From positions 9,340 through 73,339 of the forward strand of contig JBGPCK010000001.1 in NCBI GenBank assembly GCA_041481715.1: a DNA stretch of 64,000 nucleotides. The letters are read 5' to 3'. The notes beneath the pieces were generated by a model. It was not told the origin of the DNA. It ran no database searches and was given only the letters and a program-made list of their open reading frames with translations. Positions within the stretch are counted from its first letter, which is position 1; each line of letters begins with the position of its first letter. Position numbers and translations under genes: made by a program. Source of the DNA: Thermoanaerobaculia bacterium. GTDB lineage: Bacteria > Acidobacteriota > Thermoanaerobaculia > UBA5066 > Gp7-AA6. Shown here piece after piece: positions 11,170-59,025 of this stretch.

Positions 11170-11230
11170 ACACTCTCACCGGCATCCCGAGCGGCCTCCG
11201 CGGGACATTCCGAATGACACGAGAGAGGCC

Positions 11231-12415
11231 GTGAGCTTCGAGTCCTTCGTCGCCCTGCGCTACCTCGCGGCGTCGCGCAAGACGGCGCACGTCGCCCTGA
11301 TCTCGACGATCTCGATCCTGGGGCTCGCGGTCGGTGTGGCGGCGCTCGTCATCTCTCTGTCGCTCTTGTCCGGCTTCCAGGACCGCATCCGCGCGCAAAT
11401 GGTCGAGCGCAGCCCGCACCTGACGGTCTCGCCGGAGCAGGGCGCGAGCCTCGCGGACCCGGAGCGCGTGCGACAGGTGCTCGCTGGCCTCGCCGGGCTG
11501 CTGGCCGTCGAGCCCGTGATCGAGGGGCGCGGCTGGATGTCCCCTTCGGCCGGGGGCACGGCGATGCCCGTGCGCTACCGCAACGCGCCCGTCGCAAGCC
11601 TCGCCGCCGTTTCCGGCTCGGAGGAACCGCCGGTTCGCGTTGCGGCTTCCGTTGGCTTCCGGATCGGAGTCGGCGTGGGGGAGTCCGTGCGCCTGACCTC
11701 CGCGCGCACGCATCTGTCGCCGATCGGCCCGATTCCCGTATCGGTCGCGCTCCGGGTCGCGGAAGTTTCCCGCCGGGGCGCCCTGGAGAAGTCACCGGAG
11801 GTGGAGGTCCCCGAACCCGTGGCGCGCGTTCTCTCCGGGATGCCAGCCGGCGCGCGCGCCTACGAAGCGCGGCTGGCCGATCCGACCGGCGTCGACCGCG
11901 CGCGCCGAGACGTCGCCCGGCGCCTCGGGACCGGATACCGGGTCGAGACCTGGAAAGACAGGAACGCTCCGCTCTCCTTTGCGCTCGGCCTGGAGAAGCT
12001 CGTCATCTTCGCCACGGTCGCCCTCGTGATCCTGGTCGCGGCATTCAACATTGTTTCGAACGTCGCGCTGCTGGTCGTGGAGAAGAAGCGGGATCTGGGC
12101 GTCTTCGCTACCATGGGCGCCGCTCCCCGGTCGCTCGCCCGCATCTATCTGATCCTCGGCGCCGCGATCGGAGGAATTGGAACGATCGGCGGCCTCGCTC
12201 TGGGCGTCACCGCGTCGCTCGTGCTCGACCGGTTCCATCTGGTCCCGCTTCCGGCGGACGTGTACCTGTTCACCCACGTCCCCTTTGCCGTGCACCCGCG
12301 GGACGTGCTTCTGGTGGCGGTCTTCTCCTTCGGGACGGCGCTTGCCGCTGCGGTGCTGCCTGCTCGCGCCGCCGCTCGCATTGCGCCGGGGGAAGCCGCG
12401 GAGCTGTCACGATGA
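11231..12415 (+). CDS. Lipoprotein-releasing ABC transporter permease LolC/LolE family
   Basis: 394 aa. Family N-terminus FVALRYL..S, N-terminal TM, periplasmic domain, FtsX C-terminal TM bundle. Followed by lolD. Confidence 0.85.
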   Translation: MSFESFVALRYLAASRKTAHVALISTISILGLAVGVAALVISLSLLSGFQDRIRAQMVERSPHLTVSPEQGASLADPERVRQVLAGLAGLLAVEPVIEGRGWMSPSAGGTAMPVRYRNAPVASLAAVSGSEEPPVRVAASVGFRIGVGVGESVRLTSARTHLSPIGPIPVSVALRVAEVSRRGALEKSPEVEVPEPVARVLSGMPAGARAYEARLADPTGVDRARRDVARRLGTGYRVETWKDRNAPLSFALGLEKLVIFATVALVILVAAFNIVSNVALLVVEKKRDLGVFATMGAAPRSLARIYLILGAAIGGIGTIGGLALGVTASLVLDRFHLVPLPADVYLFTHVPFAVHPRDVLLVAVFSFGTALAAAVLPARAAARIAPGEAAELSR

Positions 12416-12496
12416 GATCCTCGGCTGTCTGTCATCGATTCTCGGTCTTGAGCGCGGCGTCGGAACCGAGAACCGGAAGCTGAAGACGGAAAACCG

Positions 12497-13198
12497 ATGA
12501 CCGTCCTGGCGATCAAGGCGGAGAATCTCTCCAAGACTTACGCCGGCGAGGCAGCGCCGGTGACGGTCTTCCGGAACCTCTCCTTCGAGCTTCCTGCGGG
12601 AGTCTTCGCCGCGGTCATGGGGCCGTCGGGCGTGGGCAAGTCGACGCTGTTGCACCTGCTCGGCGGGATCGACCGCCCCAACGCCGGGCGCGTCGAGGTG
12701 TTTGGCGCGGCGCTTGGGGAGATGCCGGCTGCCGAGCGCGCGCGGTTTCGAAATGAGCGCGTCGGCTTCGTGTTCCAATTCCACCATCTGCTGCCCGAGT
12801 TCACCGCCGAGGAAAACGTCGCTTTTCCGCACCGCATCGCGGGACTGCCGGCCGGAGAGGCGCTGCGGCGGGCGCGGTCGCTGCTGGCACGGGTCGGCCT
12901 CGCCGACCGCGGCGGTCACCGCGCGCGGGCCCTCTCCGGTGGCGAGCAGCAGCGCGTTGCCATCGCGCGGGCGTTGGCGCGGGATCCAGGCCTGCTGCTG
13001 GCCGACGAACCCACGGGCAACCTCGACGCGGAATCGGCGGCCCGGGTCTTCGACTTGCTGGAAGGCCTACACCGGGAGCGGGGCATGAGCACGGTGCTGG
13101 TGACACACAACCCCGATCTAGCGAAGCGCTGTGATAAAATTTTCCTCATGTCCCGGGAAGGAATCTCTCCCGCGCCGGGTTTCGCGGGGCGGGTATAG
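12497..13198 (+). CDS. lolD: Lipoprotein-releasing system ATP-binding protein
   Basis: Walker A GPSGVGKST, signature [15 protein letters not shown], Walker [13 protein letters not shown]. 233 aa directly after the LolC/E permease. Confidence 0.9.
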   Translation: MTVLAIKAENLSKTYAGEAAPVTVFRNLSFELPAGVFAAVMGPSGVGKSTLLHLLGGIDRPNAGRVEVFGAALGEMPAAERARFRNERVGFVFQFHHLLPEFTAEENVAFPHRIAGLPAGEALRRARSLLARVGLADRGGHRARALSGGEQQRVAIARALARDPGLLLADEPTGNLDAESAARVFDLLEGLHRERGMSTVLVTHNPDLAKRCDKIFLMSREGISPAPGFAGRV

Positions 13199-13231
13199 GC
13201 CCAGCCCATATGGCCTGCGTGCCCGCCAGCG

Positions 13232-15664
<2,433 letters not shown>

Positions 15665-15864
15665 CTTCTCGGCCTGAGAACCCGTCCCTTTCGGGTGCCG
15701 CGGGCAAGTAATCTCGCGAACTCGGCTCTCGTTTCCCTCCCAACTGAACGTTTGCTCCGGACAGGGAACAAGTTAGGCTAGCGCTTCGTTCGAACGGGGA
15801 GCACGATGAGGAGAGCGGCCGGGAAGATTCGGGTAGAGCGCGGCACGTCCTGCCGGAGCGCGGA

Positions 15865-18378
15865 TTGAGGAGATTCCCGGTGCCGGCCGGCCTCCTCGCG
15901 GCCGGCCTCTTCTGCGCCGCGGCCGCCGCGGCCCAGGCTCCCACTCCTCCGCCCGAGCCCGTCTCGACCCCCGCGAACCTCGCGCCGACCCCGGCCCCCG
16001 CCCCCGTGGCATCGAGCCGGGCGGGGGAGATCCTCGTGGGCATCCGCGTCGTGGGCTACCAGACGGTCTCGCCCGACACGGTCGCCCATTACCTCGGCAT
16101 CAAGGTTGGCGACCCTTACGACCCGGAGGCCATCCGGTCGCACTTCCACACGCTTTGGGACGTGGGCCTGCTCGACAATGTGACGATCGAAGCCGAGCAC
16201 GGACCGCAGGGCGTCACCCTCGTGGTGTCAATCGAGGAGCGGCCGACGATTACCGCGATCGACTTCGTGGGAAACAAGAAGATCACGACCTCTCAAATCA
16301 AGGATCGTCTCAAGGAAGAGAAGATCGAGGTTCGCGGCGGCTCGCCGCTGTCGCTGCGGGAGATCGCCCGCGTGCGCTCGGTGATCTCCGACTACTACCT
16401 CGAGCAGGGGTACCGCAGCGTCAGCGTGGACTTCCGCATCGACGACATCTCGAAGACGGAGAAGAAGGTCGTCTTCACGATCGACGAGGGAGACAAGATC
16501 AAGATCGCGTCGATTCAGTTCCAGGGCAACAAGGTCTTTCGGGCCTGGCAGCTGCGAAACGCGATGAAGAAGACGAAGGTCGACACCCTCTGGCGTGTCT
16601 TCTCGGAGAACACGACCTACAGCCAGGCCAACTACGAGGCGGACGTCGAGAACATCAAAGGCGTGTACCACGCGAAGGGATACAAGGACGTCGTCGTTAA
16701 GGATCCGATTCTCGACGTCTACGTTAAGAATCCGAAGGCCAACCCGAAGAAGTTGAAGCGGGCGGTCCACATCACGATTCCGATCGTGGAAGGAGAGCAA
16801 TTCTTCGTCAACGAAATCCGGGTCGTGCGAGTCGATCAGTCGGGCAAGGCGACCGAAGAGAGCTCGGCCATGGTGTTCCCGCAGAAGATGATTCTCTCCA
16901 AGTTTTGGGAGCTCGCCCCGGGAACGGTTCTAAACCGCGATCGGCTCATCGAGGCCCTTTCCCAGGTCGAGTCCATCTACAAGTCCAACGGGTACATCTA
17001 CTGGTTCGCCGATCCGACCTACAAAGAGGTGGGCAACCACCGAGTGGACATCGAAATTCACATCTTCGAAGGAGAGAAGTTCTATCTCGGCCGGTTCGAG
17101 GTCAAAGGCAATACCAATACGCGGGACAAGGTCATCCGCCGGGAGTTCGCCCTGGACGAGGGCGCCGTGATGAACATGGACGCGGTGAAGCGCAGCCTCC
17201 AGAAGCTCCAACAGCTCGGCTACTTCAAGGTCTCGGAGGAGCCCGATTTCAGTGTGCGTCCGGATGACAAGAAGGTCGACCTCACGCTCAAGGGACAGGA
17301 GACTTCGCGCAACGAGGTCCAGTTCGGCGCCGGTTACTCGGCCGTCGACAAGTTCTTCGGCCAGTTTTCCTTTCAGACGCGCAATTTCCTCGGCCGCGGA
17401 GAGATCCTGGCTGCTTCGGCGCAGATCGGGGCGATCTCGAGCTTCTATGACGTTTCCTACACGATTCCCTGGTTCCTGGACCGCAACCAGTCGCTCGGCT
17501 TCTCGATCTACCGCCGCACGGCCAACTATCTCAACATCGACGAAAAGCGTCAGGGGACGAGCGTCTTCTACGGCCGGGGGATCAGCCTCTTCGACTCCTG
17601 GAACCTGCTCTACCAGTACGAGAGCGTCAAGGCGAACTACCCGGTGCGCGGGGCGCCGGTGCCGCCCGGCCAGCCCATTCCTCCCGACAAGCTCACCGCA
17701 ACCTACGGCAAGACCTCCTCGTTCACGCCGGCGTACCGCTACGACAGCCGCAACGACCCGTTCGACCCAACGGGGGGCCGACGGACGTTCGCGAGCCTTC
17801 AAATCGCCGGTGGCGTCCTCGGGGGAACCGACTATTTCTTCAAGCCGATCCTCGGGGGCACGATCTACATTCCGGTCCGGTTTCCGCGGCACGCCTACAT
17901 CGCCGCGAACCTGGAAGGCGGATGGGTGGCGAACTACGGGGGTCACGGCATCCCGATCTTCGAGCGCTTCCAGCTCGGCGGAGAGCAGAGCCTGCGCGGC
18001 TTCCAAACCGGATCGATCCTGCCGCTTCAGAAGAACAACGAGGTCTTCACCGACTCGCTGGGCCGCATTCTCGGCGGCAACAAGTTCTGGGTGCTGAATC
18101 TTGAATACACGTTCCTGCAGTTCGGCCCCGGAAAGTTGCTCGCCTTCGCGGATCTGGGAAATACCTACTTCGACAGCCAGTCCTTCAATCCGGCCGACTT
18201 CCGCTACTCGGTCGGCGCCGAACTGAGGATCTTCCTGCCCATCTTCCAGGCGCCCCTGCGCTTCATCTATTTCTTCAATCCGGTGCTCGTGCAGCCGATC
18301 GACCAGTTCGGCTTCCCCATTTCCAGCTTGAAGGAGAAGAGCTCCGGCTTTCTCTTCTCCATCGGGCGTACGTTCTAG
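15865..18378 (+). CDS. bamA: Outer membrane protein assembly factor BamA
   Basis: 837 aa. Signal peptide, five POTRA-like repeats, C-terminal Omp85 beta-barrel ending in an aromatic residue (..SIGRTF). Followed by skp-lpxD-fabZ-lpxA, the canonical context. Confidence 0.9.
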   Translation: MRRFPVPAGLLAAGLFCAAAAAAQAPTPPPEPVSTPANLAPTPAPAPVASSRAGEILVGIRVVGYQTVSPDTVAHYLGIKVGDPYDPEAIRSHFHTLWDVGLLDNVTIEAEHGPQGVTLVVSIEERPTITAIDFVGNKKITTSQIKDRLKEEKIEVRGGSPLSLREIARVRSVISDYYLEQGYRSVSVDFRIDDISKTEKKVVFTIDEGDKIKIASIQFQGNKVFRAWQLRNAMKKTKVDTLWRVFSENTTYSQANYEADVENIKGVYHAKGYKDVVVKDPILDVYVKNPKANPKKLKRAVHITIPIVEGEQFFVNEIRVVRVDQSGKATEESSAMVFPQKMILSKFWELAPGTVLNRDRLIEALSQVESIYKSNGYIYWFADPTYKEVGNHRVDIEIHIFEGEKFYLGRFEVKGNTNTRDKVIRREFALDEGAVMNMDAVKRSLQKLQQLGYFKVSEEPDFSVRPDDKKVDLTLKGQETSRNEVQFGAGYSAVDKFFGQFSFQTRNFLGRGEILAASAQIGAISSFYDVSYTIPWFLDRNQSLGFSIYRRTANYLNIDEKRQGTSVFYGRGISLFDSWNLLYQYESVKANYPVRGAPVPPGQPIPPDKLTATYGKTSSFTPAYRYDSRNDPFDPTGGRRTFASLQIAGGVLGGTDYFFKPILGGTIYIPVRFPRHAYIAANLEGGWVANYGGHGIPIFERFQLGGEQSLRGFQTGSILPLQKNNEVFTDSLGRILGGNKFWVLNLEYTFLQFGPGKLLAFADLGNTYFDSQSFNPADFRYSVGAELRIFLPIFQAPLRFIYFFNPVLVQPIDQFGFPISSLKEKSSGFLFSIGRTF

Positions 18379-18498: not shown

Positions 18499-19125
18499 AT
18501 GAAGCGCATCCTGCTCTCGCTCGTCGCGGCCGGCGTGACGGTGGTTGCGTCGGGTCAAGCCACGGCCCCGCCCCCCGCGGCGGCGGCGCCGCCCGGGTCG
18601 CTCAAGATCGCGGTGATCAACGTTGATCGGCTCGTGACGGACTCGGCTCTCGGCAAAGAGGCGTTCGCGCGCGTCAAGAAGCTCGCCGACCAGAAGAAGG
18701 AGGAGGGGGAGAAGCTGACCAAGGAGCTTCGCGACATGGAGCAAAAGCTCGCCGACCAGGGGGCCTCGCTGGCCGACGACAAGAAGGACGCGCTTCAGAA
18801 GCAGTACCAGGAGAAGGCAATCGCCTTCAAGCGCTTCCAGGACGACGCGCAGCGGCAGCTCGAGGAGGCCCAGAAGAAGGAGCTCGAAGAGCTCCAGAAG
18901 CGGGTCATGCCCGTCATCGCGCAAATCGGCAAGGAGAAGAGCTACACGCTGATCTTCAACAAGTTTCAGTCGGGCCTGGTGTACGCGGACGAAGGGTCGG
19001 ACATCACCGATGAAGTGCTGAAGCGCTTCAATACGACGGTCGCGATGCCGGCCCCTGCCGAGAAGCCCGCGGCTCCGGGCGCTGCCGGTGCGCAGCCAAA
19101 GCCGACGCCCAAGAAACCTTCCTGA
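18499..19125 (+). CDS. skp: Periplasmic chaperone Skp (OmpH family)
   Basis: Internal ATG with GGAG RBS upstream gives MKRILLSLVAAGVTVVASGQA signal peptide. Lys/Glu/Gln-rich coiled-coil body typical of OmpH. The longer ORF from 18394 is probably not translated. Confidence 0.8.
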   Translation: MKRILLSLVAAGVTVVASGQATAPPPAAAAPPGSLKIAVINVDRLVTDSALGKEAFARVKKLADQKKEEGEKLTKELRDMEQKLADQGASLADDKKDALQKQYQEKAIAFKRFQDDAQRQLEEAQKKELEELQKRVMPVIAQIGKEKSYTLIFNKFQSGLVYADEGSDITDEVLKRFNTTVAMPAPAEKPAAPGAAGAQPKPTPKKPS

Positions 19126-19400: not shown

Positions 19401-20522
19401 GTGAAGACCGCCAAGCGGACCGGATCGCGCCCCCGGCGGGTCCCAGAGCGACAGGGCCGACACTCCTTCACACTGGCCGAAGTGGCCCGTGTCGTCGGTG
19501 GGCGGGTCTCCGGTGATCCGAAGCGGGTCTTGACGGGACTGCGTGGCCTCGATCAGGCAGGCCCGGAGCATCTCTCCTTTCTCTCGGACCCACGGCGCGC
19601 CGGGGAGGCGCGGGAAAGCCGCGCGGGGGCCCTCCTCGTCCCGTCGGAAGAGGCGGCCGGCGGGCGTCCTGCCGTGATCGTCGCCGCGCCCCTGCAGGCT
19701 CTCGCGGCGTGTCTCGAGGCGTTCTTTCCTCAGCCGCGGACCACACCCGGTGTCGCGCGAGGGGCCCACGTCCACCGGACCGCCCGGCTCGGCAGGGGGG
19801 TTTCGGTCGCCGCCGGCGCCACGGTCGGACCTCGAGCTCGCATCGGCGCGCGCACGGTCATCGGACCGGGCGCGTACGTCGGTCCGGACACCGAGATCGG
19901 AGAGGACGGGCTCCTGCACGCCAATGCCGTGGTGTACGCGGGCTGCCGGATCGGCGCACGGTGCGTGCTGCACGCGGGCGCGGTGATCGGCTCCGACGGA
20001 TTCGGGTACGTCTGGGACGGGCAGCGCCATCGGAAGATCCCGCAGGTCGGGATTGTGCGCCTAGAAGACGACGTCGAGGTCGGGGCCAACGCGGCAATCG
20101 ACCGCGCGACTCTGGGCGAGACGGTGGTCGGGCGCGGAACGAAGATTGACAACCTCGTCCAGGTCGGCCACAACGTTCTGATCGGCGAGCATTCCCTACT
20201 CTGCGGGCAGGCGGGGGTGGCGGGGTCGACGCGCATCGGTCGAAGGGTCACCCTGGCGGGCCAGGCGGGTGTCGCGGACCACGTAACGATCGGGGAGGGC
20301 GCGATCGCGACGGCGCAGTCGGGAATCGTGACCGGAGCGAAGGTCGCGGCCGGAGCGGTGGTCTCCGGCATGCCGGCGGCCCCGCACCGCGAGTTCTTGA
20401 AGCGCGCAGCCTGGGTGGCGCGACTTCCGGAGCTCGCGCGCCGAGTGGAGCAGCTGGAGCGGCGGCTGGCCGAGGCCGGCAAAGGAGGGAGCCCGTGGAG
20501 CTCGGAATCGGCGAGATCCTGA
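19401..20522 (+). CDS. lpxD: UDP-3-O-(3-hydroxyacyl)glucosamine N-acyltransferase
   Basis: Left-handed beta-helix hexapeptide repeats throughout. LpxD N-terminal region (FTLAEVARVVGG). True start may be downstream of 19401 (typical LpxD is about 340 aa). Confidence 0.85.
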   Translation: MKTAKRTGSRPRRVPERQGRHSFTLAEVARVVGGRVSGDPKRVLTGLRGLDQAGPEHLSFLSDPRRAGEARESRAGALLVPSEEAAGGRPAVIVAAPLQALAACLEAFFPQPRTTPGVARGAHVHRTARLGRGVSVAAGATVGPRARIGARTVIGPGAYVGPDTEIGEDGLLHANAVVYAGCRIGARCVLHAGAVIGSDGFGYVWDGQRHRKIPQVGIVRLEDDVEVGANAAIDRATLGETVVGRGTKIDNLVQVGHNVLIGEHSLLCGQAGVAGSTRIGRRVTLAGQAGVADHVTIGEGAIATAQSGIVTGAKVAAGAVVSGMPAAPHREFLKRAAWVARLPELARRVEQLERRLAEAGKGGSPWSSESARS

Positions 20523-20932
20523 AGATCCTGCCGCACCGCTATCCCTTTCTGCTCGTGGACCGCATTTTGGAGCTCGAAGCGGGCAAGCGCGTCGTGGGGA
20601 TCAAGAACGTCACCTACAACGAGGAGTTTTTTCAGGGGCACTTCCCCGGAAACCCCGTGATGCCGGGCGTACTCATCATCGAGGCGATGGCCCAGGTGGC
20701 GGGAGTGGGGCTGCTCGGAACGGTGCCGGACCCCGCCAAGAAGCTCCTCTACATGGCGGGCGTGGACCGCGCGAAGTTCCGGCGGCCCGTGGTCCCGGGA
20801 GACCAGCTGCGCCTGGAGGCGGAGATCGTGTCGCTCCGGATGCGGACGTGCAAGTGCCGCGCGCGGGCCCTGGTGGATGGGACGCTCTGTGCGGAGGCGG
20901 AGCTGATGTCCGTTCTGGTGGATCGTCCTTGA
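20495..20932 (+). CDS. fabZ: 3-hydroxyacyl-ACP dehydratase
   Basis: 145 aa. Hotdog fold motifs ILPHRYPFLLVDRI and FFQGHFPGNPVMPGVLIIEAMAQ. Confidence 0.9.
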   Translation: MELGIGEILKILPHRYPFLLVDRILELEAGKRVVGIKNVTYNEEFFQGHFPGNPVMPGVLIIEAMAQVAGVGLLGTVPDPAKKLLYMAGVDRAKFRRPVVPGDQLRLEAEIVSLRMRTCKCRARALVDGTLCAEAELMSVLVDRP

Positions 20933-21708
20933 CGACCGCGGTTCATCCGACCGCCCTCGTCTCGCCGGACGCCGAGCTCGCCGAGGACGTCACCGTAGGG
21001 CCTTACGCCGTCGTCGGTCCGGAAGTGCGCCTGGGCCGCGGCACGTCGGTCGGCGCGCACGCCCACCTGCAGGGGCCAGCGACGCTTGGCGAGGAGAATC
21101 GGATCTTCCCCTTCGCCGTCGTCGGGTTCGACCCGCAGGACCTGAAATACCGGGGAGAGCGGACACGGCTCGCGGTGGGCTCCCGCAACGTCTTCCGGGA
21201 GTTTTGCACGATCCACCGAGGCACGATCGGTGGCCGCGGCGAGACGATCATCGGGGACGAGAACCTGTTCATGGCCTACAGCCACGTCGCGCACGACTGC
21301 CGGATCGGCTCGCGGTCGGTTCTCGCCAACTACGTCGGTCTGGCCGGCCATATCGACGTCGGGGATTGCGCCTTTCTGGGCGCCTACGTCGGCTGTCATC
21401 AGTTCATCCGCGTCGGGAACCACGCCTACGTCGGCGCGTTCACCGTGATCCGCCAAGACGTGCTCCCGTACTGCAAGACGGACGGTGTCGAGGCGAAGAC
21501 CTACGGAATTAACACCATCGGTCTGAAGCGTCGGGGCTTCACGCCTGAGCGCCTGGAGGCCCTGGAAAAGGCCTATCGGATCCTGGTCCGGTCGAAGCTG
21601 AACACCAGCCAGGCCCTCGAGCGGATCGAGGCCGAACTGGCGGGGCACGAGGACATCGAGTACCTCGTCCAATTCATCCGCGAGGGTCAGCGGGGATTTC
21701 ACAAGTGA
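20929..21708 (+). CDS. lpxA: Acyl-ACP--UDP-N-acetylglucosamine O-acyltransferase
   Basis: TTG start overlapping fabZ stop by 4 nt. Hexapeptide repeats plus C-terminal helical domain (KTYGINTIGLKRRGF). Confidence 0.9.
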   Translation: MTTAVHPTALVSPDAELAEDVTVGPYAVVGPEVRLGRGTSVGAHAHLQGPATLGEENRIFPFAVVGFDPQDLKYRGERTRLAVGSRNVFREFCTIHRGTIGGRGETIIGDENLFMAYSHVAHDCRIGSRSVLANYVGLAGHIDVGDCAFLGAYVGCHQFIRVGNHAYVGAFTVIRQDVLPYCKTDGVEAKTYGINTIGLKRRGFTPERLEALEKAYRILVRSKLNTSQALERIEAELAGHEDIEYLVQFIREGQRGFHK

Positions 21709-21790
21709 CGCTCGAGTGTCGTCCCGGGCGACGCGGGGAGTCGGCGGTCCTACGGCGGGAGCCTGATTCTCCGGCGCCGGGCCCTCCCGA

Positions 21791-22756
21791 ATGACCTTGC
21801 AGACTCCCGTCCGCCTTGCGGTGGTCGGGGTGGGACACCTCGGACGTCAGCACGCAAGGGTCGCGGCGGACCTGCCGGGCGCACGGCTCGAGGGCGTTCA
21901 CGACCACAACGAGGGTCGCGCGCAGGAGGTCGCTCGCGAATACGGCCTGGAGGTTCTCCCGGACCTCGAGTCCGTGGCACGGCGCGCGGAGGCCGTGATT
22001 GTGGCCACTCCCACGGCAAGCCACGCCGAGATTGCCGCCTTCTTTCTCGAGCGGGGACGGGACGTCCTGATCGAGAAGCCGATCACCGTCACGGTCGCCG
22101 AGGCGGACGACCTCCTGGCCCGAGCGCGCGCGGCCGGCCGCATCATCCAGGTCGGCCATGTGGAACGCTACAACCCGGCGGTGGAGGCTGCCTTCCGCCT
22201 TCTCTCACAGCCCCGCTTTGTCGAGGTGCACCGGCTGGGGGCTTTCACGGGACGGAGCCTCGACGTGGATGTCGTGCGGGACTTGATGATCCACGACCTG
22301 CAGATCGTCGGGGAACTGGTGGGGCGGCCGGTGACGGAGATCCGGGCGGCAGGGCTCCCGGTCTTGACGGCGCAGTTGGACATCGCCAACGCCCGGATCG
22401 CGTTCGAGGGAGGCTGCGTAGCGAGCCTCACGGCTTCGCGGGTTTCGCCGGAGAAGACCCGCAAGTTCCGTGTTTTCGCTCCCTCGCTCTACGTTTCGAT
22501 CGACATGCTCACCCGCTCGGCCACCGCCTTTCGGTTGTCCCACGAGCGGGGCACGCCGGAAGTATTACCGGTAGTGCTCCCGGTCGAGAAGGAGGAGCCT
22601 CTACGGCTAGAGCTCGCCGACTTCGTGCGCTGCGTGCGCGGGCGGGAGCAGCCCAGGGTTCCTGGAGAGGCCGGCCGCGACGCGCTCGCTCTCGCCGACG
22701 ACGTCTTGAAGGCGATCGAAGCGCACCGCCGCACGGTCGACGAGGAGCCCGTTTGA
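21791..22756 (+). CDS. Gfo/Idh/MocA family NAD(P)-dependent oxidoreductase (possible GnnA-like UDP-GlcNAc 3-dehydrogenase)
   Basis: Rossmann N-terminus VRLAVVGVGHLGRQHA and EKP motif LIEKPITV characteristic of the family. 321 aa immediately downstream of lpxA. Confidence 0.8.
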   Translation: MTLQTPVRLAVVGVGHLGRQHARVAADLPGARLEGVHDHNEGRAQEVAREYGLEVLPDLESVARRAEAVIVATPTASHAEIAAFFLERGRDVLIEKPITVTVAEADDLLARARAAGRIIQVGHVERYNPAVEAAFRLLSQPRFVEVHRLGAFTGRSLDVDVVRDLMIHDLQIVGELVGRPVTEIRAAGLPVLTAQLDIANARIAFEGGCVASLTASRVSPEKTRKFRVFAPSLYVSIDMLTRSATAFRLSHERGTPEVLPVVLPVEKEEPLRLELADFVRCVRGREQPRVPGEAGRDALALADDVLKAIEAHRRTVDEEPV

Positions 22757-23616
22757 CCGAGCCGGGCCGAATCGGCTTGATCGGGGGCAGTGGCGTCTAC
22801 GACCTTTCGGGGATCGAGGGCGTGCGCGAAGAGATCCTGGAGACGCCCTTCGGCTCGCCCGCGGACGCCTACATCACCGGGCGGCTGGAAGGGGTTCCCG
22901 TCGCCTTTCTCTCGCGCCATGGGCGCGGCCACCGGCTCTCGCCGTCGGAGATCAACTATCGCGCCAACATCTGCGGATTCAAGCTGCTCGGCTGCGACGC
23001 GATCCTCTCGGTCTCGGCGGTGGGGAGCCTGAAGGAAGAGCTTGCACCGCGCCAGGCGGTGATTCCGGATCAGTTCATCGACCGCACGCGGCACCGGGCC
23101 GACACGTTCTTCGGCAATGGGGTCGTCGCGCATGCGAGTTTCGCGGACCCCGTCTGCCCGGCCGCCGCGGAGGCTCTCGCAGCCGCGGCCCAGGCGAGCG
23201 GGCTTTCGGTGCGGCGAGGGGGGACCTACCTGTGCATGGAAGGACCGCCCTTCTCGACACGCGCCGAATCACGCCTCTATCGATCGTGGGGAGCCGACGT
23301 GATCGGCATGACGAATCTGACCGAGGCCAAGCTCGCCCGAGAGGCGGAGATCTGTTACGCGTCACTCGCCCTCGTGACCGACTACGACTGCTGGAGGGGG
23401 GCGACGAAGCCGGTAGCGGTCGAGAGGATCCTGGAGATCTTGCGGGAGAACTCGGCCGCGGCCCGTAGGGCCATTCGGGAGGCGGCGCGGCGGATGGATC
23501 GGAAACGTAACTGCGGCTGCCGCGACGCGATGCGTTACGCGGTCCTGACGGACCGCAAAGTGATCTCCGAAGAGGCGCGGAGGCGGCTCGAGCCGATCGT
23601 GGGCAGGTACCTGTGA
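22753..23616 (+). CDS. mtnP: S-methyl-5'-thioadenosine phosphorylase
   Basis: 287 aa. PNP/MTAP family motifs (IGLIGGSGVYDL, FLSRHGRGH, VIGMTNLTEAKLAREAEI). Confidence 0.85.
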   Translation: MTEPGRIGLIGGSGVYDLSGIEGVREEILETPFGSPADAYITGRLEGVPVAFLSRHGRGHRLSPSEINYRANICGFKLLGCDAILSVSAVGSLKEELAPRQAVIPDQFIDRTRHRADTFFGNGVVAHASFADPVCPAAAEALAAAAQASGLSVRRGGTYLCMEGPPFSTRAESRLYRSWGADVIGMTNLTEAKLAREAEICYASLALVTDYDCWRGATKPVAVERILEILRENSAAARRAIREAARRMDRKRNCGCRDAMRYAVLTDRKVISEEARRRLEPIVGRYL

Positions 23617-24626
23617 CAGAGGCGGCGCGCTCGAAGGGCCGCGTGATCGTCACCGGCTCGGTGGCGTTCGACTACCTGATGCGCTTTCCGGGGCATTTCG
23701 TGGAGCACCTGATTCCGGACCGCCTCAAACGCCTCTCGGTCTCCTTTCTCGTGGACGACATGCGCCGCGTGCCCGGCGGGTGCGGCCCCAACATCGCCTA
23801 TGGTCTGGCGCTGCTCGGTGAGCGGCCATTGTTGCTCGCCTCCGCAGGCACGGACGCCGCAAGCTATCGTGACGCCCTCGCTGCGGCTGGCGTCGACGTT
23901 TCCGGGCTCGTGCTGCATTCGGACGTCTTCACGGCCTCGTTTTTCGTCTCGACCGATCGGGACCAGAATCAGCTGGCGTCGTTCTACACGGGCGCGATGG
24001 CCCGCGCCCGAGACCTCTCGATCACCGATACCGGCGACACCGCGGCCTCACTCGTGATCGTCTCCCCAAACGACCCGGCCGCGATGGAGCGCTACACCCA
24101 AGAATGCCGGCGTCTCTCGATCCCCTTTCTCTACGACCCGAGCCAGCAGGTCGCGCGCCTCTCCGGCGAGGAGTTGCTCGCCGGGATCCAGGGTGCCGCA
24201 ATGCTCATCGTCAACGACTACGAGCTCGGAATCGTCTCGCAGAAGACGGGCCTGTCCCGCGACGCCCTGGAAGAGCTCGTGCCGGCGCTCGTGTCGACGC
24301 ACGGGGCCGATGGATCGACCATCTCGGTCTCGGGTTCCCGAGGCCGGCAGAGGTATGCAATTCCCGCCGCGCGACTGGAAGTGGAGGCGCTCGACCCGAC
24401 GGGAGTCGGCGACGCCTTCCGCGCCGGGTTGATCTGCGGAATGCGGCTCGGCCTCTCCTGGGAGGTTGCGGGAAAGATGGGGAGCGTGGCGGCTGTTTTC
24501 GGGCTCGAGGCGGTCGGTCCCCAGCCGCCGGCATACTCGATCCGCGACTTCATTTCCCGCTATGAGCGGAGCTTCGGGCCCGAGCCTTCCCTCGAAAAGC
24601 TCCGGAAACGGCCCTCCGCCCGATAG
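23613..24626 (+). CDS. PfkB-family carbohydrate/nucleoside kinase (adenosine kinase-like)
   Basis: 337 aa. Ribokinase-fold motifs (PGGCGPN; C-terminal DPTGVGDAF). Start overlaps mtnP stop. Confidence 0.8.
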   Translation: MTEAARSKGRVIVTGSVAFDYLMRFPGHFVEHLIPDRLKRLSVSFLVDDMRRVPGGCGPNIAYGLALLGERPLLLASAGTDAASYRDALAAAGVDVSGLVLHSDVFTASFFVSTDRDQNQLASFYTGAMARARDLSITDTGDTAASLVIVSPNDPAAMERYTQECRRLSIPFLYDPSQQVARLSGEELLAGIQGAAMLIVNDYELGIVSQKTGLSRDALEELVPALVSTHGADGSTISVSGSRGRQRYAIPAARLEVEALDPTGVGDAFRAGLICGMRLGLSWEVAGKMGSVAAVFGLEAVGPQPPAYSIRDFISRYERSFGPEPSLEKLRKRPSAR

Positions 24627-28950: not shown

Positions 28951-29538
28951 ATGCGCCGACGGGGAGATGGGGGGAATCGCCTTCTTCACGGCGTCTCCGT
29001 TTCACCCCGTGCTCGAGCCCGCAACTCGATCGCGGCGGTGTTTCTCCTGATCGCGACCGCCCTGGCGTCGACCGGGTGCGGCTACAGCCTCGCCGGTCGA
29101 AGCTCGACGCTTGCGCCTTCGATCAAGGTCATCCGGTTCCAGACGCTGGCCAACCAGACCTCGCTTGCGGGCGTCGAGCAGCGGCTGTCCGGGGAGATCG
29201 CCAGGGAGCTGGCCGCGCGGGGCCGCTTCCGCGTGCAAACGGAAGCCTCAGGCGCGGACGCCGAGCTCACGGGAGCGGTCACGCGCTTTGACTTCTATCC
29301 GGTGGCATTCGACCAGTCCGGCCTGGCGACGCAATATCAGGTAGCCGTAACCGCCCGTGTGGCCTTGAAGAGTCTGCCCGAGGAAAAACCGATCTGGGAA
29401 AACCCGGCCTACACGTTCCGGGAGAACTACAGCTTTCTCGGCGCCGGCTCTTACGTCGACCGCCAAAACGAGACGATCGACAAGGTGGCTGGGAAGTTCG
29501 CGGAGAGTCTCGTGTCGAGCCTGTTGGAAGGCTTCTAG
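28951..29538 (+). CDS. lptE: LPS-assembly lipoprotein LptE (RlpB)
   Basis: C-terminal part of shadow ORF 27019..29538. ATG at 28951 gives a lipoprotein signal with lipobox LASTG-C. Classic leuS-lptE synteny. Confidence 0.65.
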   Translation: MRRRGDGGNRLLHGVSVSPRARARNSIAAVFLLIATALASTGCGYSLAGRSSTLAPSIKVIRFQTLANQTSLAGVEQRLSGEIARELAARGRFRVQTEASGADAELTGAVTRFDFYPVAFDQSGLATQYQVAVTARVALKSLPEEKPIWENPAYTFRENYSFLGAGSYVDRQNETIDKVAGKFAESLVSSLLEGF

Positions 29539-29906: not shown

Positions 29907-30743
29907 CTAACGGACCTCGACGCCCAGAGACTTGAGGCGCGCCCTCGCCAGCCGCGCCTCCTCCGAAGCGGGGTACTCGTTCAGGACGTACTGTAGCTGG
30001 ACCACCGCTTCCGCCTTCTGGCCGACCTCGAGCATCGCATAGCCCTTCTTGAGCAGAGCGGCCGCGGCCTTGTCACTCTTGGGCCACTGTTTGAGCAGCT
30101 TGTCGAAGTCGGCCACCGCCTCGGCGAATTTCTTCTGGGCGTAGTGGCACTCACCGATCCAGTACTCCGCATTGTCCGTGAGGTCGGTGTTCGGGTAGTT
30201 GCGGACGTAGTCCTCGAAACCCTGAATGGCCAGTGCGTACCGCCCTTTGGTGTAGTCGGTCGAAGCCGTGTCGTAGAGCTCGGCGGGAGAAGGGCCGCCG
30301 GCCGGAGGGGCAACGACGGCGGTGTCCACGGCCGGAGGGCCGGAAGCGCCGCCGGCCGGCGGCGCGGCGCCGGCCGCGGAGCCCCGCATTCGCGCCAGGT
30401 CTCCCTGCGTCTCGGCAATCTGCTGCGAAAGTTGGGAGAGGCGCCGGTTGGTGTCTTCGAGCTTCGCCTCGAGCTGCTCCATCTTGGTGGTCAGCTCCCC
30501 GAGCTTGACTCCCATGTCGGCGTTGGACTTGAGCAACTGCTGGGTCTGTTGCGACACGCTGGAGTTGAGCTTCGCGACCTCTTCCTTGCTCGAGGACTTT
30601 CGCTCGAGGGCCTGGATCTCCTTCTCGATGTCGTTCATCTGCCGGTGCAGACCCTCGATGTCGCTCGAGGACACGCAGGCCGTGCCGATCAGGAGCGGAG
30701 CCGCCGCGAGGACGAGGAAGTTACGTTTCGCGAGGCTGGCCAC
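29907..30743 (-). CDS. ybgF: Tol-Pal system protein YbgF/CpoB
   Basis: 278 aa. Signal peptide, N-terminal coiled coil, C-terminal TPR-like region. Last gene of the tolQ-tolR-tolA-tolB-pal-ybgF cluster. Confidence 0.8.
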   Translation of the reverse strand: MASLAKRNFLVLAAAPLLIGTACVSSSDIEGLHRQMNDIEKEIQALERKSSSKEEVAKLNSSVSQQTQQLLKSNADMGVKLGELTTKMEQLEAKLEDTNRRLSQLSQQIAETQGDLARMRGSAAGAAPPAGGASGPPAVDTAVVAPPAGGPSPAELYDTASTDYTKGRYALAIQGFEDYVRNYPNTDLTDNAEYWIGECHYAQKKFAEAVADFDKLLKQWPKSDKAAAALLKKGYAMLEVGQKAEAVVQLQYVLNEYPASEEARLARARLKSLGVEVR

Positions 30744-31424: not shown

Positions 31425-32747
31425 TCAGGGCACCCACACCGGCTGGCTATTGTTGCCCGCGTCGGTCAGCAGGCGTTTGTTCTTCCCGTCCACCGCGTCC
31501 ATCGTGTAGATCTGCGTCGAGCCGCCGCGTCGCGACTGGTAGACGATCTTCCCGCCGTCCGGCGACCAGGCGGGATGGGAGTTGGACCCCTCCGAGGTGA
31601 GCTGCACCGTCCGTCCCGTCGCCAGGTCCATCACGCAGATGTTGAAGTCTCCCTCGTTGCGGCACGCAAAGGCAATTCGGGAGCCATCCGGAGACCAGGT
31701 GCCTTCGTCGTTCCAGTTTCCCGCGAACACCAACTGTCGAGGACTCGTTCCCTCGGCTTCCATGATCCAGATCTGGGGCACGCCGGTCTGGTCCGAGGTG
31801 TACAAGATCTGGCGCCCGGTGGGAGACCACTCGGGTGCGGCTTCGAGGGAGCGCGTGTTGGTCAGGCGCCGCAGATTGCCGCCGTTGGCGCCCACGACGT
31901 AGACGTCGGTGTTGCCGCGCTGGGAGCCGGCGAACACGATCTGCGACCCGTCGGGGGAGAGCGCGGGGGAGGCATTCAGGTCGACGCCCGTCGGGACCTC
32001 CCGCTTGTCGCTGCCGTCCACATTCATCGAGTAGATCTGAGGGAACGTGTGCACGTACGATGTGTAGACGATCCGTCCCCCGTGGCCGTTGGGGTTGATC
32101 GAGAGGGACTTGTGGGCGGTCAACGGGTGGACGTTGCGCCCGTCGAAATCCATCGCGTAGATCTCCTTGTTCTTGTCCCGATCGGACACGAACGCGATCG
32201 TCGAGAGGTAAAGGCCGTCCTTGCCGGTAAAGTACTTGACGAGGTCGTTGGCCAGCGTGTGCGCGATGCGGGAAACATAGGAGGCGCCGCCGGAGTAGCG
32301 GCGTCCGAGGACCATCTTTCGTGACTTGAGGTCCCAGACGCGCCCCTCGATCGCCACGCGGTCGCCGGATACTTCCGCCCGCGTGTCGACCAGAATTTCC
32401 GCTCCTCCCGACAGCCACCGCTCACCGGCGTCCGGCGTCGTCGGGTCGCGCACACCCGCGGGATAAAGCGAGGGATCGGCGAGGACGAAGATGTCGGAGT
32501 ATTCGACGTCCGAGCGCAATGTTGCCGTGAACGGTTCGACGACCGCGGAGGTGAGCGCCGCCGCTCCCGACGAAAGCAGCTCCGGAACGGCCACGGACAG
32601 GCGGCGAACTCCCTCTTTGCGGATGGTGATCTCGAGCTCCTGCGGTGTGGCGGAAGGGGGCGGGGTGGGCTGCCGCGTCTGCGCCTCGACGCACGGCGAT
32701 GAGGCGAGGGCGTAGAAACCCAGAAGGAGAGCGAGGAGTCTTTTCAT
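31425..32747 (-). CDS. tolB: Tol-Pal system beta-propeller protein TolB
   Basis: 440 aa. Signal peptide, TolB N-domain, six-bladed propeller repeats (SPDGSRIAF, WSPDGGKIVY). Confidence 0.9.
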   Translation of the reverse strand: MKRLLALLLGFYALASSPCVEAQTRQPTPPPSATPQELEITIRKEGVRRLSVAVPELLSSGAAALTSAVVEPFTATLRSDVEYSDIFVLADPSLYPAGVRDPTTPDAGERWLSGGAEILVDTRAEVSGDRVAIEGRVWDLKSRKMVLGRRYSGGASYVSRIAHTLANDLVKYFTGKDGLYLSTIAFVSDRDKNKEIYAMDFDGRNVHPLTAHKSLSINPNGHGGRIVYTSYVHTFPQIYSMNVDGSDKREVPTGVDLNASPALSPDGSQIVFAGSQRGNTDVYVVGANGGNLRRLTNTRSLEAAPEWSPTGRQILYTSDQTGVPQIWIMEAEGTSPRQLVFAGNWNDEGTWSPDGSRIAFACRNEGDFNICVMDLATGRTVQLTSEGSNSHPAWSPDGGKIVYQSRRGGSTQIYTMDAVDGKNKRLLTDAGNNSQPVWVP

Positions 32748-34068: not shown

Positions 34069-34845
34069 TCAGGTGAAGTTCCTTTCCGCCAAATTGATGA
34101 ACTCCAGGGCAAAATCCTCCATTCCCGCCCGCTGCATGCGCACCTTCCCCATGAAGTAGTTGTAGAAGATGAGAGCGGGAATGGCCGCCGCGAGGCCCGC
34201 GGCCGTGTTGATGAGCGCCTCGGAGATGCCGGGAGCGACCGCCGCAATCGACGTCGATCCGGTGTTTCCGATTGCGCGGAAGGACTGCATGATGCCCCAG
34301 ACGGTTCCGAAGAGTCCGATGAAGGGGCAGGCCGAGGCCGTCGTGGCGAGAAAGGTCATGTACTTGGTCAGGCGAGAGACCTCGGCCGTGATGGCCCTCT
34401 CGAGGGCGCGCTCGACCCCCGAGATGTTCTTGATCAGGAGCTTGCCTGCGCCGCCGGCAGTGACCGCCGGATCCTCGGGGCGGTTCGCCTTGACCTGGGC
34501 GTCCAACTCCGCGTAGCCCGCCCGGAAGAGGGTGGTCAGCGGCGTATCGGGCAACTGGCTGGCGATGCCGTTGACCTCGGAAAAGCGCTTGGACTTTCGG
34601 AAGAAGCCGATGAACTTGTCCGACTGGCGTGCCACGCGGCGCAGGCGGAGGAATTTGGCGAAAATAATGATCCAGGAGATGAGCGAAAAGAGAAACAGGA
34701 TGCCGAGAACGACCTTGGCCGCCGGCCCCGTCTCCCGGAAGAAGGCCAGGAGAGAGTTGCCGCCGGGAAGGTTTTCGCTGGAGATCGGCTGAAAAAGTGC
34801 CGCGACCATCCCGGAGGACCGTAACATACGCATGGGAGAATTCAA
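34069..34845 (-). CDS. tolQ: MotA/TolQ/ExbB proton channel protein TolQ
   Basis: 258 aa. 3 TM helices, conserved C-terminal channel region (GLFGTVWGIMQSF, AIPALIFYNYF). Confidence 0.9.
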   Translation of the reverse strand: MNSPMRMLRSSGMVAALFQPISSENLPGGNSLLAFFRETGPAAKVVLGILFLFSLISWIIIFAKFLRLRRVARQSDKFIGFFRKSKRFSEVNGIASQLPDTPLTTLFRAGYAELDAQVKANRPEDPAVTAGGAGKLLIKNISGVERALERAITAEVSRLTKYMTFLATTASACPFIGLFGTVWGIMQSFRAIGNTGSTSIAAVAPGISEALINTAAGLAAAIPALIFYNYFMGKVRMQRAGMEDFALEFINLAERNFT

Positions 34846-50198: not shown

Positions 50199-50252
50199 GG
50201 TTTCTCCTGTGAGCCGCCGGAACTCCCAACGCAAGGGCGCCAGAAGGATACG

Positions 50253-54645: not shown

Positions 54646-54670
54646 CGGACTCGCCCTCCGGGTCCGGGCG

Positions 54671-55657: not shown

Positions 55658-55682
55658 AATTTGCTAAGATCCCCCAGAGTCC

Positions 55683-56951: not shown

Positions 56952-56973
56952 CCGCGCCACGACCTCCTCGCGG

Positions 56974-58980: not shown

Positions 58981-59025
58981 CGCGAAGTTATAGCGCGAGG
59001 GGGCGCTGCGATAGAATGGATTTTC

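What the first reader, a model, noticed from the sequence alone, without database searches (positions are those of the whole stretch)
21791..22756. Gfo/Idh/MocA oxidoreductase immediately downstream of lpxA in place of lpxB: possible GnnA-like UDP-GlcNAc 3-dehydrogenase (GlcN3N-type lipid A)
The cluster BamA-Skp-LpxD-FabZ-LpxA is canonical. In most bacteria lpxA is followed by lpxB, and in some by lpxI. Here a 321-aa Gfo/Idh/MocA NAD-binding oxidoreductase follows after an 82-nt gap, and then come MTA phosphorylase and a PfkB kinase. In Acidithiobacillus and Leptospira a Gfo/Idh/MocA enzyme (GnnA) next to lpxA oxidises the 3-OH of UDP-GlcNAc as the first step toward 2,3-diamino-2,3-dideoxyglucose lipid A with four amide-linked acyl chains. 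No DegT-family GnnB aminotransferase is visible in the window, so the assignment is tentative.
Basis: inference. Interest (0 to 1): 0.55.

Follow-up and report, generated by a model that had tools for sequence, protein, structure and literature searches.

The report
GnnA-type sugar dehydrogenase in lipid A operon
The gene after lpxA is a genuine relative of GnnA, the enzyme that starts conversion of the lipid A sugar into its 3-amino form, so this uncultured acidobacterium probably makes amide-linked lipid A, but the partner aminotransferase was not found, so this is a sound and fairly ordinary annotation.

Summary
A 321-aa Gfo/Idh/MocA ORF (21791-22756, +) lies 82 nt after lpxA in a bamA-skp-lpxD-fabZ-lpxA cluster. 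MTA phosphorylase and a PfkB kinase follow it with 4-nt overlaps.

The protein belongs to the GnnA subfamily:
- Its best solved relative by sequence (184 bits; next hit 84) and by fold (TM about 0.9; E 4e-35 against 3e-24) is A. ferrooxidans GnnA, the UDP-GlcNAc 3-dehydrogenase.
- It is 46% identical to the Desulfuromonas homolog that sits in lpxA-gnnA-gnnB-lpxB, but only 30% identical to a WbpB-type dehydrogenase.
- It keeps 64 of 65 family-conserved positions.
- It occupies the same slot after lpxA as authentic gnnA.

Across 84 loci from about eight phyla this family is embedded in lipid A clusters. A DegT/GnnB gene is adjacent in only 7.

No GnnB or lpxB occurs in the window, within 10 kb beyond either end, or in 80 related metagenome contigs, all of which keep lpxA-gnnA-MTAP. 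A genome-wide GnnB search was not possible.

Verdict: a new member of a known kind. GlcN3N-type lipid A is likely but unproven. Interest is low to moderate.

The parts
15880..18378 (+). bamA (Omp85 with POTRA repeats), first gene of the envelope cluster
   Evidence: Pfam POTRA and Omp85. Gene call taken from L001.
18499..19125 (+). skp/ompH periplasmic chaperone
   Evidence: Pfam OmpH, E 5.9e-28. Gene call.
19401..20522 (+). lpxD (UDP-3-O-acylglucosamine N-acyltransferase)
   Evidence: NCBIfam NF002060 at 376 bits and TIGR01853 at 342 bits, both above their cutoffs.
20495..20932 (+). fabZ (3-hydroxyacyl-ACP dehydratase); overlaps lpxD by 28 nt
   Evidence: Pfam FabA-like domain, E 3.6e-36.
20929..21708 (+). 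lpxA (acyl-ACP:UDP-GlcNAc acyltransferase); overlaps fabZ by 4 nt
   Evidence: NCBIfam NF003657 at 347 bits and TIGR01852 at 320 bits, both above their cutoffs. All solved LpxA structures match at 170-257 bits.
21709..21790 (+). 82-nt lpxA-gnnA intergenic spacer; no terminator-like or sigma-70-like site detected
   Evidence: Sequence read; promoter and terminator scan. In the relative L007 this spacer is only 4 nt, which fits co-transcription.
21791..22756 (+). GnnA-type Gfo/Idh/MocA oxidoreductase, predicted UDP-GlcNAc 3-dehydrogenase (the finding)
   Evidence: Best sequence and fold match is A. ferrooxidans GnnA. It is 46% identical to the GnnB-linked Desulfuromonas GnnA. K96 and H168 align with AfGnnA K91 and H164.
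22753..23616 (+). mtnP (S-methyl-5'-thioadenosine phosphorylase); 4-nt overlap with the gnnA-like gene; co-operonic, with no known role in lipid A
   Evidence: TIGR01694 at 300.7 bits, above its cutoff of 274.85. Adjacency is conserved in L007, L008, L011, L058 and nearly all of L102-L181.
23613..24626 (+). PfkB-family kinase of unknown substrate; 4-nt overlap with mtnP
   Evidence: Pfam PfkB, E 3.3e-30. Only weak NCBIfam hits, to ribose-1-phosphate and nucleoside kinases at about 55 bits, far below their cutoffs.

Best explanation
The ORF encodes an ortholog of GnnA, the NAD+-dependent UDP-N-acetylglucosamine 3-dehydrogenase. It is co-transcribed with lpxD-fabZ-lpxA. It oxidises the 3-OH of UDP-GlcNAc to the 3-keto sugar. 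A GnnB/WbpE-family (DegT) aminotransferase encoded elsewhere in the genome then converts that product to UDP-GlcNAc3N. LpxA N-acylates UDP-GlcNAc3N, so some or all of the lipid A backbone becomes 2,3-diamino-2,3-dideoxyglucose carrying amide-linked acyl chains.

Shown here: membership of the GnnA subfamily by sequence, fold and synteny, and placement in the lipid A operon.

Inferred: the substrate, the existence of the aminotransferase partner, and the resulting lipid A chemistry.
For: Sequence and fold:
- PDB sequence search: 7bvj/7bvk, full length, 183.7 bits, E 5e-53; the next hit scores 84 bits.
- The 7bvj sequence is 98-99% identical to Acidithiobacillus database proteins. The PDB title is 'UDP-N-acetylglucosamine 3-dehydrogenase GnnA from A. 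ferrooxidans'.
- The AlphaFold model has pLDDT 95. The top five Foldseek hits are all GnnA chains (TM 0.87-0.94, rmsd about 2 A, E 4e-35); glucose-fructose oxidoreductase follows at 3e-24.
- The best NCBIfam family is UDP-GlcNAc 3-dehydrogenase at 182.8 bits. Characterised AfGnnA scores only 162.6 bits on the same model.
- The target is 46% identical (249 bits) to the Desulfuromonas versatilis GnnA, which lies in lpxA-gnnA-gnnB-lpxB, and 30% identical (107 bits) to a WbpB-type dehydrogenase.
- It matches 64 of 65 columns that are at least 90% conserved across 85 family members, including K96 and H168.

Genomic context:
- It occupies the same position after lpxA as gnnA in Acidithiobacillus (L009) and Desulfuromonas (L010).
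- In 59 of 84 loci from about eight phyla the family lies within 10 kb of lipid A genes. The gene immediately upstream is LpxA or LpxI in 47, and LpxB is immediately downstream in 17.
- A neighbour-joining tree follows taxonomy, with GnnB-linked members nested among unlinked ones.
- Split gnnA and gnnB genes are documented in M. loti, a GlcN3N-lipid A organism.
Against: - No DegT/GnnB gene was found in the 64-kb window, in 10 kb beyond either end, or in the related loci of this lineage (4 genome loci and 80 metagenome contigs). Presence elsewhere in the genome could not be tested.
- In this lineage the gene is translationally coupled to mtnP and a PfkB kinase. That trio is conserved down to about 45% GnnA identity.
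- The conserved Lys and His are general catalytic residues of Gfo/Idh/MocA enzymes, so they do not fix the substrate.
- No lipid A structure was found in the literature for Acidobacteriota.
- GnnB and WbpE-type aminotransferases cannot be separated by score, so even a genome hit would need analysis of its context.
Confidence: 0.62

Rival explanations
1. It is a GnnA-family enzyme acting in the lipid A pathway, but without a DegT partner. The 3-keto product, or another lipid A precursor, could be handled by a different enzyme: a non-DegT aminotransferase, or a reduction that gives a 3-epimer. The lpx-linked family found in Acidobacteriota, Verrucomicrobiota, Nitrospirota and Gemmatimonadota would then have a role distinct from the A. 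ferrooxidans paradigm.
For: GnnB is adjacent in only 7 of 84 loci, all from Acidithiobacillus, Desulfuromonas or Methylococcaceae. No DegT-like hit at E<1e-3 lies within 10 kb in the other loci, nor in 80 metagenome contigs of the target lineage. Linkage to lpxA, lpxI or lpxB has persisted through several rearrangements.
Against: Genes do not need to be adjacent to work together; M. loti has split genes and GlcN3N lipid A. GnnB-linked and unlinked members interleave in the tree and share the same conserved positions. Acidobacteriota do encode GnnB/WbpE-family aminotransferases that lack a neighbouring Gfo dehydrogenase (Vicinamibacterales, L098). No alternative chemistry is known.
Confidence: 0.17
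2. It supplies UDP-GlcNAc3N, or a related 3-keto or 3-amino sugar, for a surface polysaccharide or O-antigen rather than for lipid A. This would resemble the WbpB/WlbA system or the archaeal UDP-GlcNAc 3-dehydrogenase pathway to 2,3-diacetamido sugars.
For: The best NCBIfam family is the archaeal UDP-GlcNAc 3-dehydrogenase used in acetamido-sugar synthesis. That model scores WbpB-type and GnnA-type proteins about equally. The GnnB-like aminotransferases of high-GC bacteria that I examined all sit in polysaccharide clusters.
Against: The target is only 30% identical to a WbpB-type enzyme, against 46% to a GnnB-linked GnnA. A second solved Gfo/Idh/MocA oxidoreductase, 3q2k, which I recall (unverified; the PDB table lists it only as 'oxidoreductase') to be the WbpB-type enzyme WlbA, scores only 28.8 bits. 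No WbpA, WbpD or WbpE, glycosyltransferase or flippase genes lie nearby. The operon partners are lpxD, fabZ and lpxA.
Confidence: 0.1
3. It works with the downstream MTA phosphorylase and PfkB kinase in nucleoside or (methylthio)ribose salvage, oxidising a sugar unrelated to lipid A.
For: The three genes overlap by 4 nt at each junction. The gnnA-mtnP(-pfkB) order is conserved in nearly every lineage relative with enough flank, down to about 45% identity.
Against: That adjacency is confined to one lineage, so it reflects a single evolutionary event. The family's linkage to lpx genes recurs across about eight phyla in three different arrangements. The closest characterised relative acts on UDP-GlcNAc. 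ribH and nusB follow in the same string, which suggests a housekeeping super-operon.
Confidence: 0.06

Closest known systems
GnnA of Acidithiobacillus ferrooxidans (PDB 7bvj/7bvk), UDP-GlcNAc 3-dehydrogenase
   Same: Similar length (313-aa native protein, 321-aa PDB chain; target 321 aa) and the same two-domain Gfo/Idh/MocA fold (TM about 0.9). The alignment is full-length at 36% identity. The EKP lysine and the DxxxH histidine are conserved. The gene lies directly after lpxA in a bamA-skp-lpxD-fabZ-lpxA cluster.
   Different: In A. ferrooxidans, gnnB (DegT) and lpxB follow immediately. Here MTA phosphorylase and a PfkB kinase follow, and neither gnnB nor lpxB lies within about 84 kb.
lpxA-gnnA-gnnB-lpxB clusters of Desulfuromonas versatilis and Methylococcaceae
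   Same: 46% identity to the D. versatilis protein, which its NCBI record names 'UDP-N-acetylglucosamine 3-dehydrogenase'. The upstream gene order is also shared: LysRS, a LolC/E-like permease, an ABC ATPase, bamA, skp, lpxD, fabZ, lpxA.
   Different: The window has ClpC inserted before bamA, and it lacks the gnnB-lpxB-msbA-waaA-lpxK continuation.
Split gnnA/gnnB systems of Rhizobiales (Mesorhizobium loti, Phyllobacterium, Oligotropha)
   Same: gnnA is not adjacent to gnnB, yet these organisms make GlcN3N lipid A. This is a precedent for an unlinked partner.
   Different: In those genomes gnnA is also separate from the lpx cluster, and both genes have been identified. Here gnnA stays in the lpx operon and gnnB has not been located.
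WbpB/WlbA-type UDP-GlcNAcA 3-dehydrogenases (2,3-diacetamido-2,3-dideoxy-uronic acid pathway)
   Same: The same superfamily and the same chemistry: C3 oxidation of a UDP-N-acetylhexosamine, followed by a DegT aminotransferase.
   Different: Only 30% identity (107 bits) to a WbpB-type protein taken from a WbpA/WbpB/WbpD/WbpE-type cluster (L100). The Gfo-DegT fusion proteins I found are WbpB-type, not GnnA-type.
Archaeal UDP-GlcNAc 3-dehydrogenase (NCBIfam NF040723)
   Same: It is the best-scoring curated family, and the alignment covers the full length.
   Different: The score is 182.8 bits against a cutoff of 450. Bacterial GnnA and WbpB proteins all score 160-220 bits on this model, so it is a sister group rather than the family of this protein.

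Membership tests
GnnA (UDP-GlcNAc 3-dehydrogenase subfamily of Gfo/Idh/MocA) | Two-domain Gfo/Idh/MocA fold with an N-terminal NAD-binding Rossmann domain | tested here: met
   Pfam PF01408 at 100 bits plus PF22725. AlphaFold model with pLDDT 95.
GnnA (UDP-GlcNAc 3-dehydrogenase subfamily of Gfo/Idh/MocA) | Closest characterised relative is A. ferrooxidans GnnA, clearly ahead of other Gfo/Idh/MocA enzymes | tested here: met
   Sequence: 183.7 bits against 84 for the next PDB hit. Fold: Foldseek E 4e-35 against 3e-24, TM 0.87-0.94.
GnnA (UDP-GlcNAc 3-dehydrogenase subfamily of Gfo/Idh/MocA) | Candidate catalytic residues Lys91 and His164 (AfGnnA numbering; recalled from the AfGnnA structural study, which the paper tools could not retrieve) | tested here: met
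   K96 and H168 align with them and are invariant in the family. These residues are common to the whole superfamily, so the test is weak.
GnnA (UDP-GlcNAc 3-dehydrogenase subfamily of Gfo/Idh/MocA) | Gene embedded in the lipid A cluster, directly downstream of lpxA | tested here: met
   Same slot as in L009 (Acidithiobacillus) and L010 (Desulfuromonas). Family-wide linkage to lpx genes in 59 of 84 loci.
GnnA (UDP-GlcNAc 3-dehydrogenase subfamily of Gfo/Idh/MocA) | A GnnB (DegT-family) aminotransferase partner in the same genome | tested here: inconclusive
   Absent from the window, from 10 kb beyond either end, and from all related loci of the lineage.
GnnA (UDP-GlcNAc 3-dehydrogenase subfamily of Gfo/Idh/MocA) | NAD+-dependent oxidation of UDP-GlcNAc at C3 | not testable with these tools
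   Needs an enzyme assay.
GnnA (UDP-GlcNAc 3-dehydrogenase subfamily of Gfo/Idh/MocA) | GlcN3N present in the organism's lipid A | not testable with these tools
   Needs lipid A mass spectrometry or NMR. No paper in the library links Acidobacteria with GlcN3N.
WbpB/WlbA-type UDP-GlcNAcA 3-dehydrogenase | Closest similarity to WbpB-type proteins, and a context containing WbpA, WbpD and WbpE | tested here: not met
   30% identity (107 bits) to the WbpB-like protein of L100, against 46% (249 bits) to GnnA. No such neighbours in the window.
Archaeal UDP-GlcNAc 3-dehydrogenase (NF040723 equivalog) | Score at or above the curated cutoff of 450 bits | tested here: not met
   182.8 bits. Characterised bacterial AfGnnA also fails, at 162.6 bits.
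Inositol 2-dehydrogenase IolG (TIGR04380) | Score at or above the curated cutoff of 355 bits | tested here: not met
   99.5 bits.
UDP-GlcNAc3N-selective LpxA (Leptospira type) | The neighbouring LpxA resembles Leptospira interrogans LpxA more than O-acylating LpxAs | tested here: inconclusive
   208 bits to 3hsq (recalled as L. interrogans LpxA; the PDB table gives no organism) against 217 bits to 1lxa (E. coli) and 257 bits to 4eqy. The selectivity residues could not be checked because the paper is not held. From memory, E. coli and A. ferrooxidans LpxA accept both substrates, so the LpxA sequence would not decide the matter anyway.

The most novel reading that the evidence does not exclude
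GnnA-type dehydrogenases are built into lipid A gene clusters across Acidobacteriota, Verrucomicrobiota, Nitrospirota, Gemmatimonadota and other phyla, almost always without an adjacent GnnB. In these lineages the enzyme may act without a DegT aminotransferase, either through a different amination route or through another modification at C3 of a lipid A precursor. That would define a previously unrecognised branch of the Raetz pathway.
Probability: 0.12. Interest if true: 0.65.

Novelty: new member of a known kind. Interest (0 to 1): 0.3.

Why it matters
If the assignment is right, Thermoanaerobaculia-like Acidobacteria make lipid A containing 2,3-diamino-2,3-dideoxyglucose, with amide-linked in place of ester-linked primary acyl chains. 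The wider survey suggests many other soil and sediment phyla do the same. In studied bacteria this chemistry makes the outer membrane more stable and lowers recognition by TLR4 and by antimicrobial peptides. I found no published lipid A structure for this phylum, so the gene gives a concrete prediction that can be tested. It also shows that automated annotation labels these proteins only as 'Gfo/Idh/MocA oxidoreductase' or 'predicted dehydrogenase', although a more specific name is justified.

Tried and rejected
**Searching for GnnB**
- tblastn of A. ferrooxidans and D. versatilis GnnB against the window gave one weak hit near 53.8 kb. It is an aspartate aminotransferase.
- The same search against all 20-kb genome loci found GnnB only in Methylococcaceae.
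- Exact look-ups of terminal window genes extended the view 10 kb past each end; nothing relevant appeared.
- A large homology search with AfGnnB returned only proteobacterial and Desulfuromonadales hits.
- A GnnB profile run against the 50%-identity representative library returned 150 hits, all at or above 434 bits. Twenty representatives with high-GC amino-acid composition were looked up. One was from Vicinamibacterales, in a polysaccharide cluster. Two others were WbpE-type. None was from Thermoanaerobaculia.
- A metagenome scan for close relatives that might still carry gnnB found 80 loci, all keeping lpxA-gnnA-MTAP.
- I considered a codon-biased DNA pattern scan for GnnB and dropped it, because hits could not be tied to this organism.

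**Other tests**
- The LpxA 'GlcN3N signature' gave no signal by similarity.
- The key papers (Sweet 2004, Robins 2009) are not held in the library.
- Rosetta-stone fusions between Gfo and DegT domains exist, but they are WbpB-WbpE type, not GnnA type.
- Neighbours of the gene in the sister subclade (TatD, GGDEF, inositol monophosphatase) were uninformative.
- The two class I/II aminotransferases in the window were rejected as partners. One is an aspartate aminotransferase and the other resembles serine palmitoyltransferase.

Full report
**Observation.** The ORF at 21791-22756 (+) is real. It encodes 321 aa from an ATG start and has GC3 of 0.83. Pfam finds the Gfo/Idh/MocA NAD-binding domain (E 1.9e-28) and the C3 C-terminal domain. 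MTA phosphorylase and a PfkB kinase lie downstream, each overlapping the preceding gene by 4 nt, and ribH and nusB follow. No terminator-like or promoter-like site lies in the gap. The identical protein occurs on six independent assemblies, including MAG GCA_041500045.1. The closest named homologs are from Thermoanaerobaculia, in the phylum Acidobacteriota.

**What the protein is.** Among solved structures the best sequence match is 7bvj/7bvk: full length, 183.7 bits, E 5e-53, with the runner-up at 84 bits. The 7bvj sequence is 98-99% identical to Acidithiobacillus proteins. The PDB title reads 'UDP-N-acetylglucosamine 3-dehydrogenase GnnA from Acidithiobacillus ferrooxidans' (also cited as GnnA in the preprint read). 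An AlphaFold model of the target (pLDDT 95) finds the five GnnA chains as its top Foldseek hits, with TM 0.87-0.94, rmsd about 2 A and E 4e-35. The next neighbour, glucose-fructose oxidoreductase, is at 3e-24.

The best NCBIfam family is the archaeal UDP-GlcNAc 3-dehydrogenase, at 182.8 bits against a cutoff of 450; IolG scores 99.5 bits. A control shows that this sub-cutoff score is normal for bacterial enzymes. Characterised AfGnnA scores 162.6 bits, the Desulfuromonas homolog 218.5, and a WbpB-type enzyme 175. That model therefore does not separate GnnA from WbpB. Pairwise comparison does: the target is 46% identical (249 bits) to the Desulfuromonas versatilis GnnA and 30% identical (107 bits) to a WbpB-type protein from a WbpA/WbpB/WbpD/WbpE-type cluster. 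Over 85 family members, the target matches 64 of the 65 columns that are at least 90% conserved; AfGnnA itself matches 55. The matched columns include K96 and H168, which align with AfGnnA K91 and H164. I recall those two residues as the proposed catalytic bases, but I could not retrieve the paper to confirm it.

**Synteny.** In Acidithiobacillus (L009) and D. versatilis (L010) the order is bamA-skp-lpxD-fabZ-lpxA-gnnA-gnnB(DegT)-lpxB. D. versatilis even shares the window's upstream genes: LysRS, a FtsX-type permease and an ABC ATPase. The target therefore sits in the ancestral gnnA slot. It does not replace lpxB. Rather, gnnB and lpxB are missing from this locus.

A scan of species-representative genomes gave 80 further loci. 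Of 84 non-redundant loci, 59 have a lipid A gene within 10 kb. The gene immediately upstream is LpxI in 31 and LpxA in 16. The gene immediately downstream is LpxB in 17, GnnB in only 7 (Acidithiobacillus, Desulfuromonas, Methylococcaceae), and MTAP in 4. No DegT-like hit at E<1e-3 lies within 10 kb in the other loci. A rough neighbour-joining tree, without bootstrap support, follows taxonomy. It places GnnB-linked members among unlinked ones, which fits a single orthologous family in which adjacency to gnnB varies.

**The missing partner.** Reference GnnB, LpxB, LpxK and WaaA find nothing in the 64-kb window. The single weak hit is an aspartate aminotransferase. Ten kilobases beyond each end also lack them. 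Complete genomes whose homologs are 72-79% identical keep the order lpxA-gnnA-mtnP-pfkB-ribH-nusB. So do essentially all 80 metagenome relatives, down to about 45% identity, and none has a DegT nearby.

GnnB orthologs are 53-58% identical across phyla, so one would have been detected had it been present in these stretches. I could not search the rest of the genome. Attempts through a profile search of representative proteins and cluster look-ups found a GnnB/WbpE-family aminotransferase in Vicinamibacterales, which belong to the Acidobacteriota; it has no Gfo neighbour. The other candidates were WbpE-type. Score alone therefore cannot separate GnnB from WbpE. Published cases such as M. loti show that gnnA and gnnB can be unlinked in organisms with GlcN3N lipid A. 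The LpxA sequence is equally similar to all solved LpxAs and gives no signal.

**Mechanism.** The most likely reading (about 0.6) is that the enzyme oxidises UDP-GlcNAc at C3 with NAD+, that an unlinked GnnB-family aminotransferase makes UDP-GlcNAc3N, and that LpxA and LpxD then build an amide-linked backbone. Family membership and operon placement are shown here. The substrate, the partner and the product are inferred.

There are three rivals:
- A lipid A role that does not involve GnnB (about 0.17). This is supported only by the rarity of adjacent gnnB.
- Supply of a 3-amino sugar for a polysaccharide (about 0.1). The lpx operon context and the distance from WbpB argue against it.
- A role with the MTA phosphorylase and PfkB kinase in salvage (about 0.06). 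The deeply conserved, translationally coupled trio supports it, but that trio is confined to one lineage, whereas linkage to lpx genes recurs across phyla.

**Novelty and verdict.** GnnA homologs next to lpxA have been known since the enzyme was first described. This is a new member of a known kind, in a phylum for which I found no lipid A chemistry. The wider pattern is worth a note: GnnA-type genes are built into lipid A clusters in many poorly studied phyla, mostly without gnnB alongside. It does not change the ordinary nature of this locus.

Noticed in passing
window 53452-59159: A possible bacterial sphingolipid or ceramide-type cluster. It holds an aspartate aminotransferase (53452-54645), an SDR/epimerase-like reductase (54671-55657), a serine palmitoyltransferase-like alpha-oxoamine synthase (55707-56951; NF047600 at 557 bits against a cutoff of 640), a 378-aa ORF with no Pfam or NCBIfam match (56974-58110), and a PAP2_3 membrane protein on the minus strand (58107-59159).
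   Followed up: partly
window 22753-24626; also L007, L008, L011, L058, L102-L181: MTA phosphorylase and a PfkB kinase of unknown substrate are translationally coupled to the gnnA-like gene through 4-nt overlaps. The gnnA-mtnP(-pfkB) order is conserved down to about 45% GnnA identity in this lineage. No functional reason for the linkage is evident.
   Followed up: partly
L012-L090 (for example L013:9117-9986, L034:8976-9917, L054:9075-9959): In Terriglobia-type Acidobacteriota the order is fabZ-lpxA-lpxI-gnnA-like, often followed by a TonB-C-domain protein. In Verrucomicrobiota, Nitrospirota, Gemmatimonadota, Zixibacteria, Eisenbacteria and Hydrogenedentota the gnnA-like gene directly precedes lpxB. 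Only 7 of 84 loci have an adjacent gnnB.
   Followed up: yes
P0409, P0441, P0454, P0470, P0498: Natural fusion proteins of 690-770 aa join a Gfo/Idh/MocA dehydrogenase to a DegT aminotransferase. Their dehydrogenase halves are WbpB-type (213-238 bits) rather than GnnA-type (84-124 bits).
   Followed up: partly
window 9604-18378 compared with L010:1-5151: The order LysRS, LolC/E-like FtsX permease, ABC ATPase, bamA is shared with Desulfuromonas, but the window has a ClpC-type AAA+ chaperone (13232-15664) inserted before bamA. LptE (29038-29538), a YfiO/BamD-like TPR lipoprotein (29907-30743), TolB (31425-32747) and a TolQ/ExbB homolog (34069-34845) lie further downstream, so the region is rich in envelope-biogenesis genes.
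   Followed up: no
window 8021-9502 (+), 49143-50843 (-), 48226-49119 (-): Three sizeable ORFs (493, 566 and 297 aa) with coding-like GC3 have no Pfam domain at E<=1e-5.
   Followed up: no
L098:10001-11119 (Vicinamibacterales-like contig): A GnnB/WbpE-family DegT aminotransferase (441 bits to the GnnB profile) stands alone in a cluster of glycosyltransferases, a carbamoyltransferase and GDSL lipases. No Gfo/Idh/MocA dehydrogenase lies within 10 kb, so its 3-keto-sugar supplier must be encoded elsewhere.
   Followed up: partly
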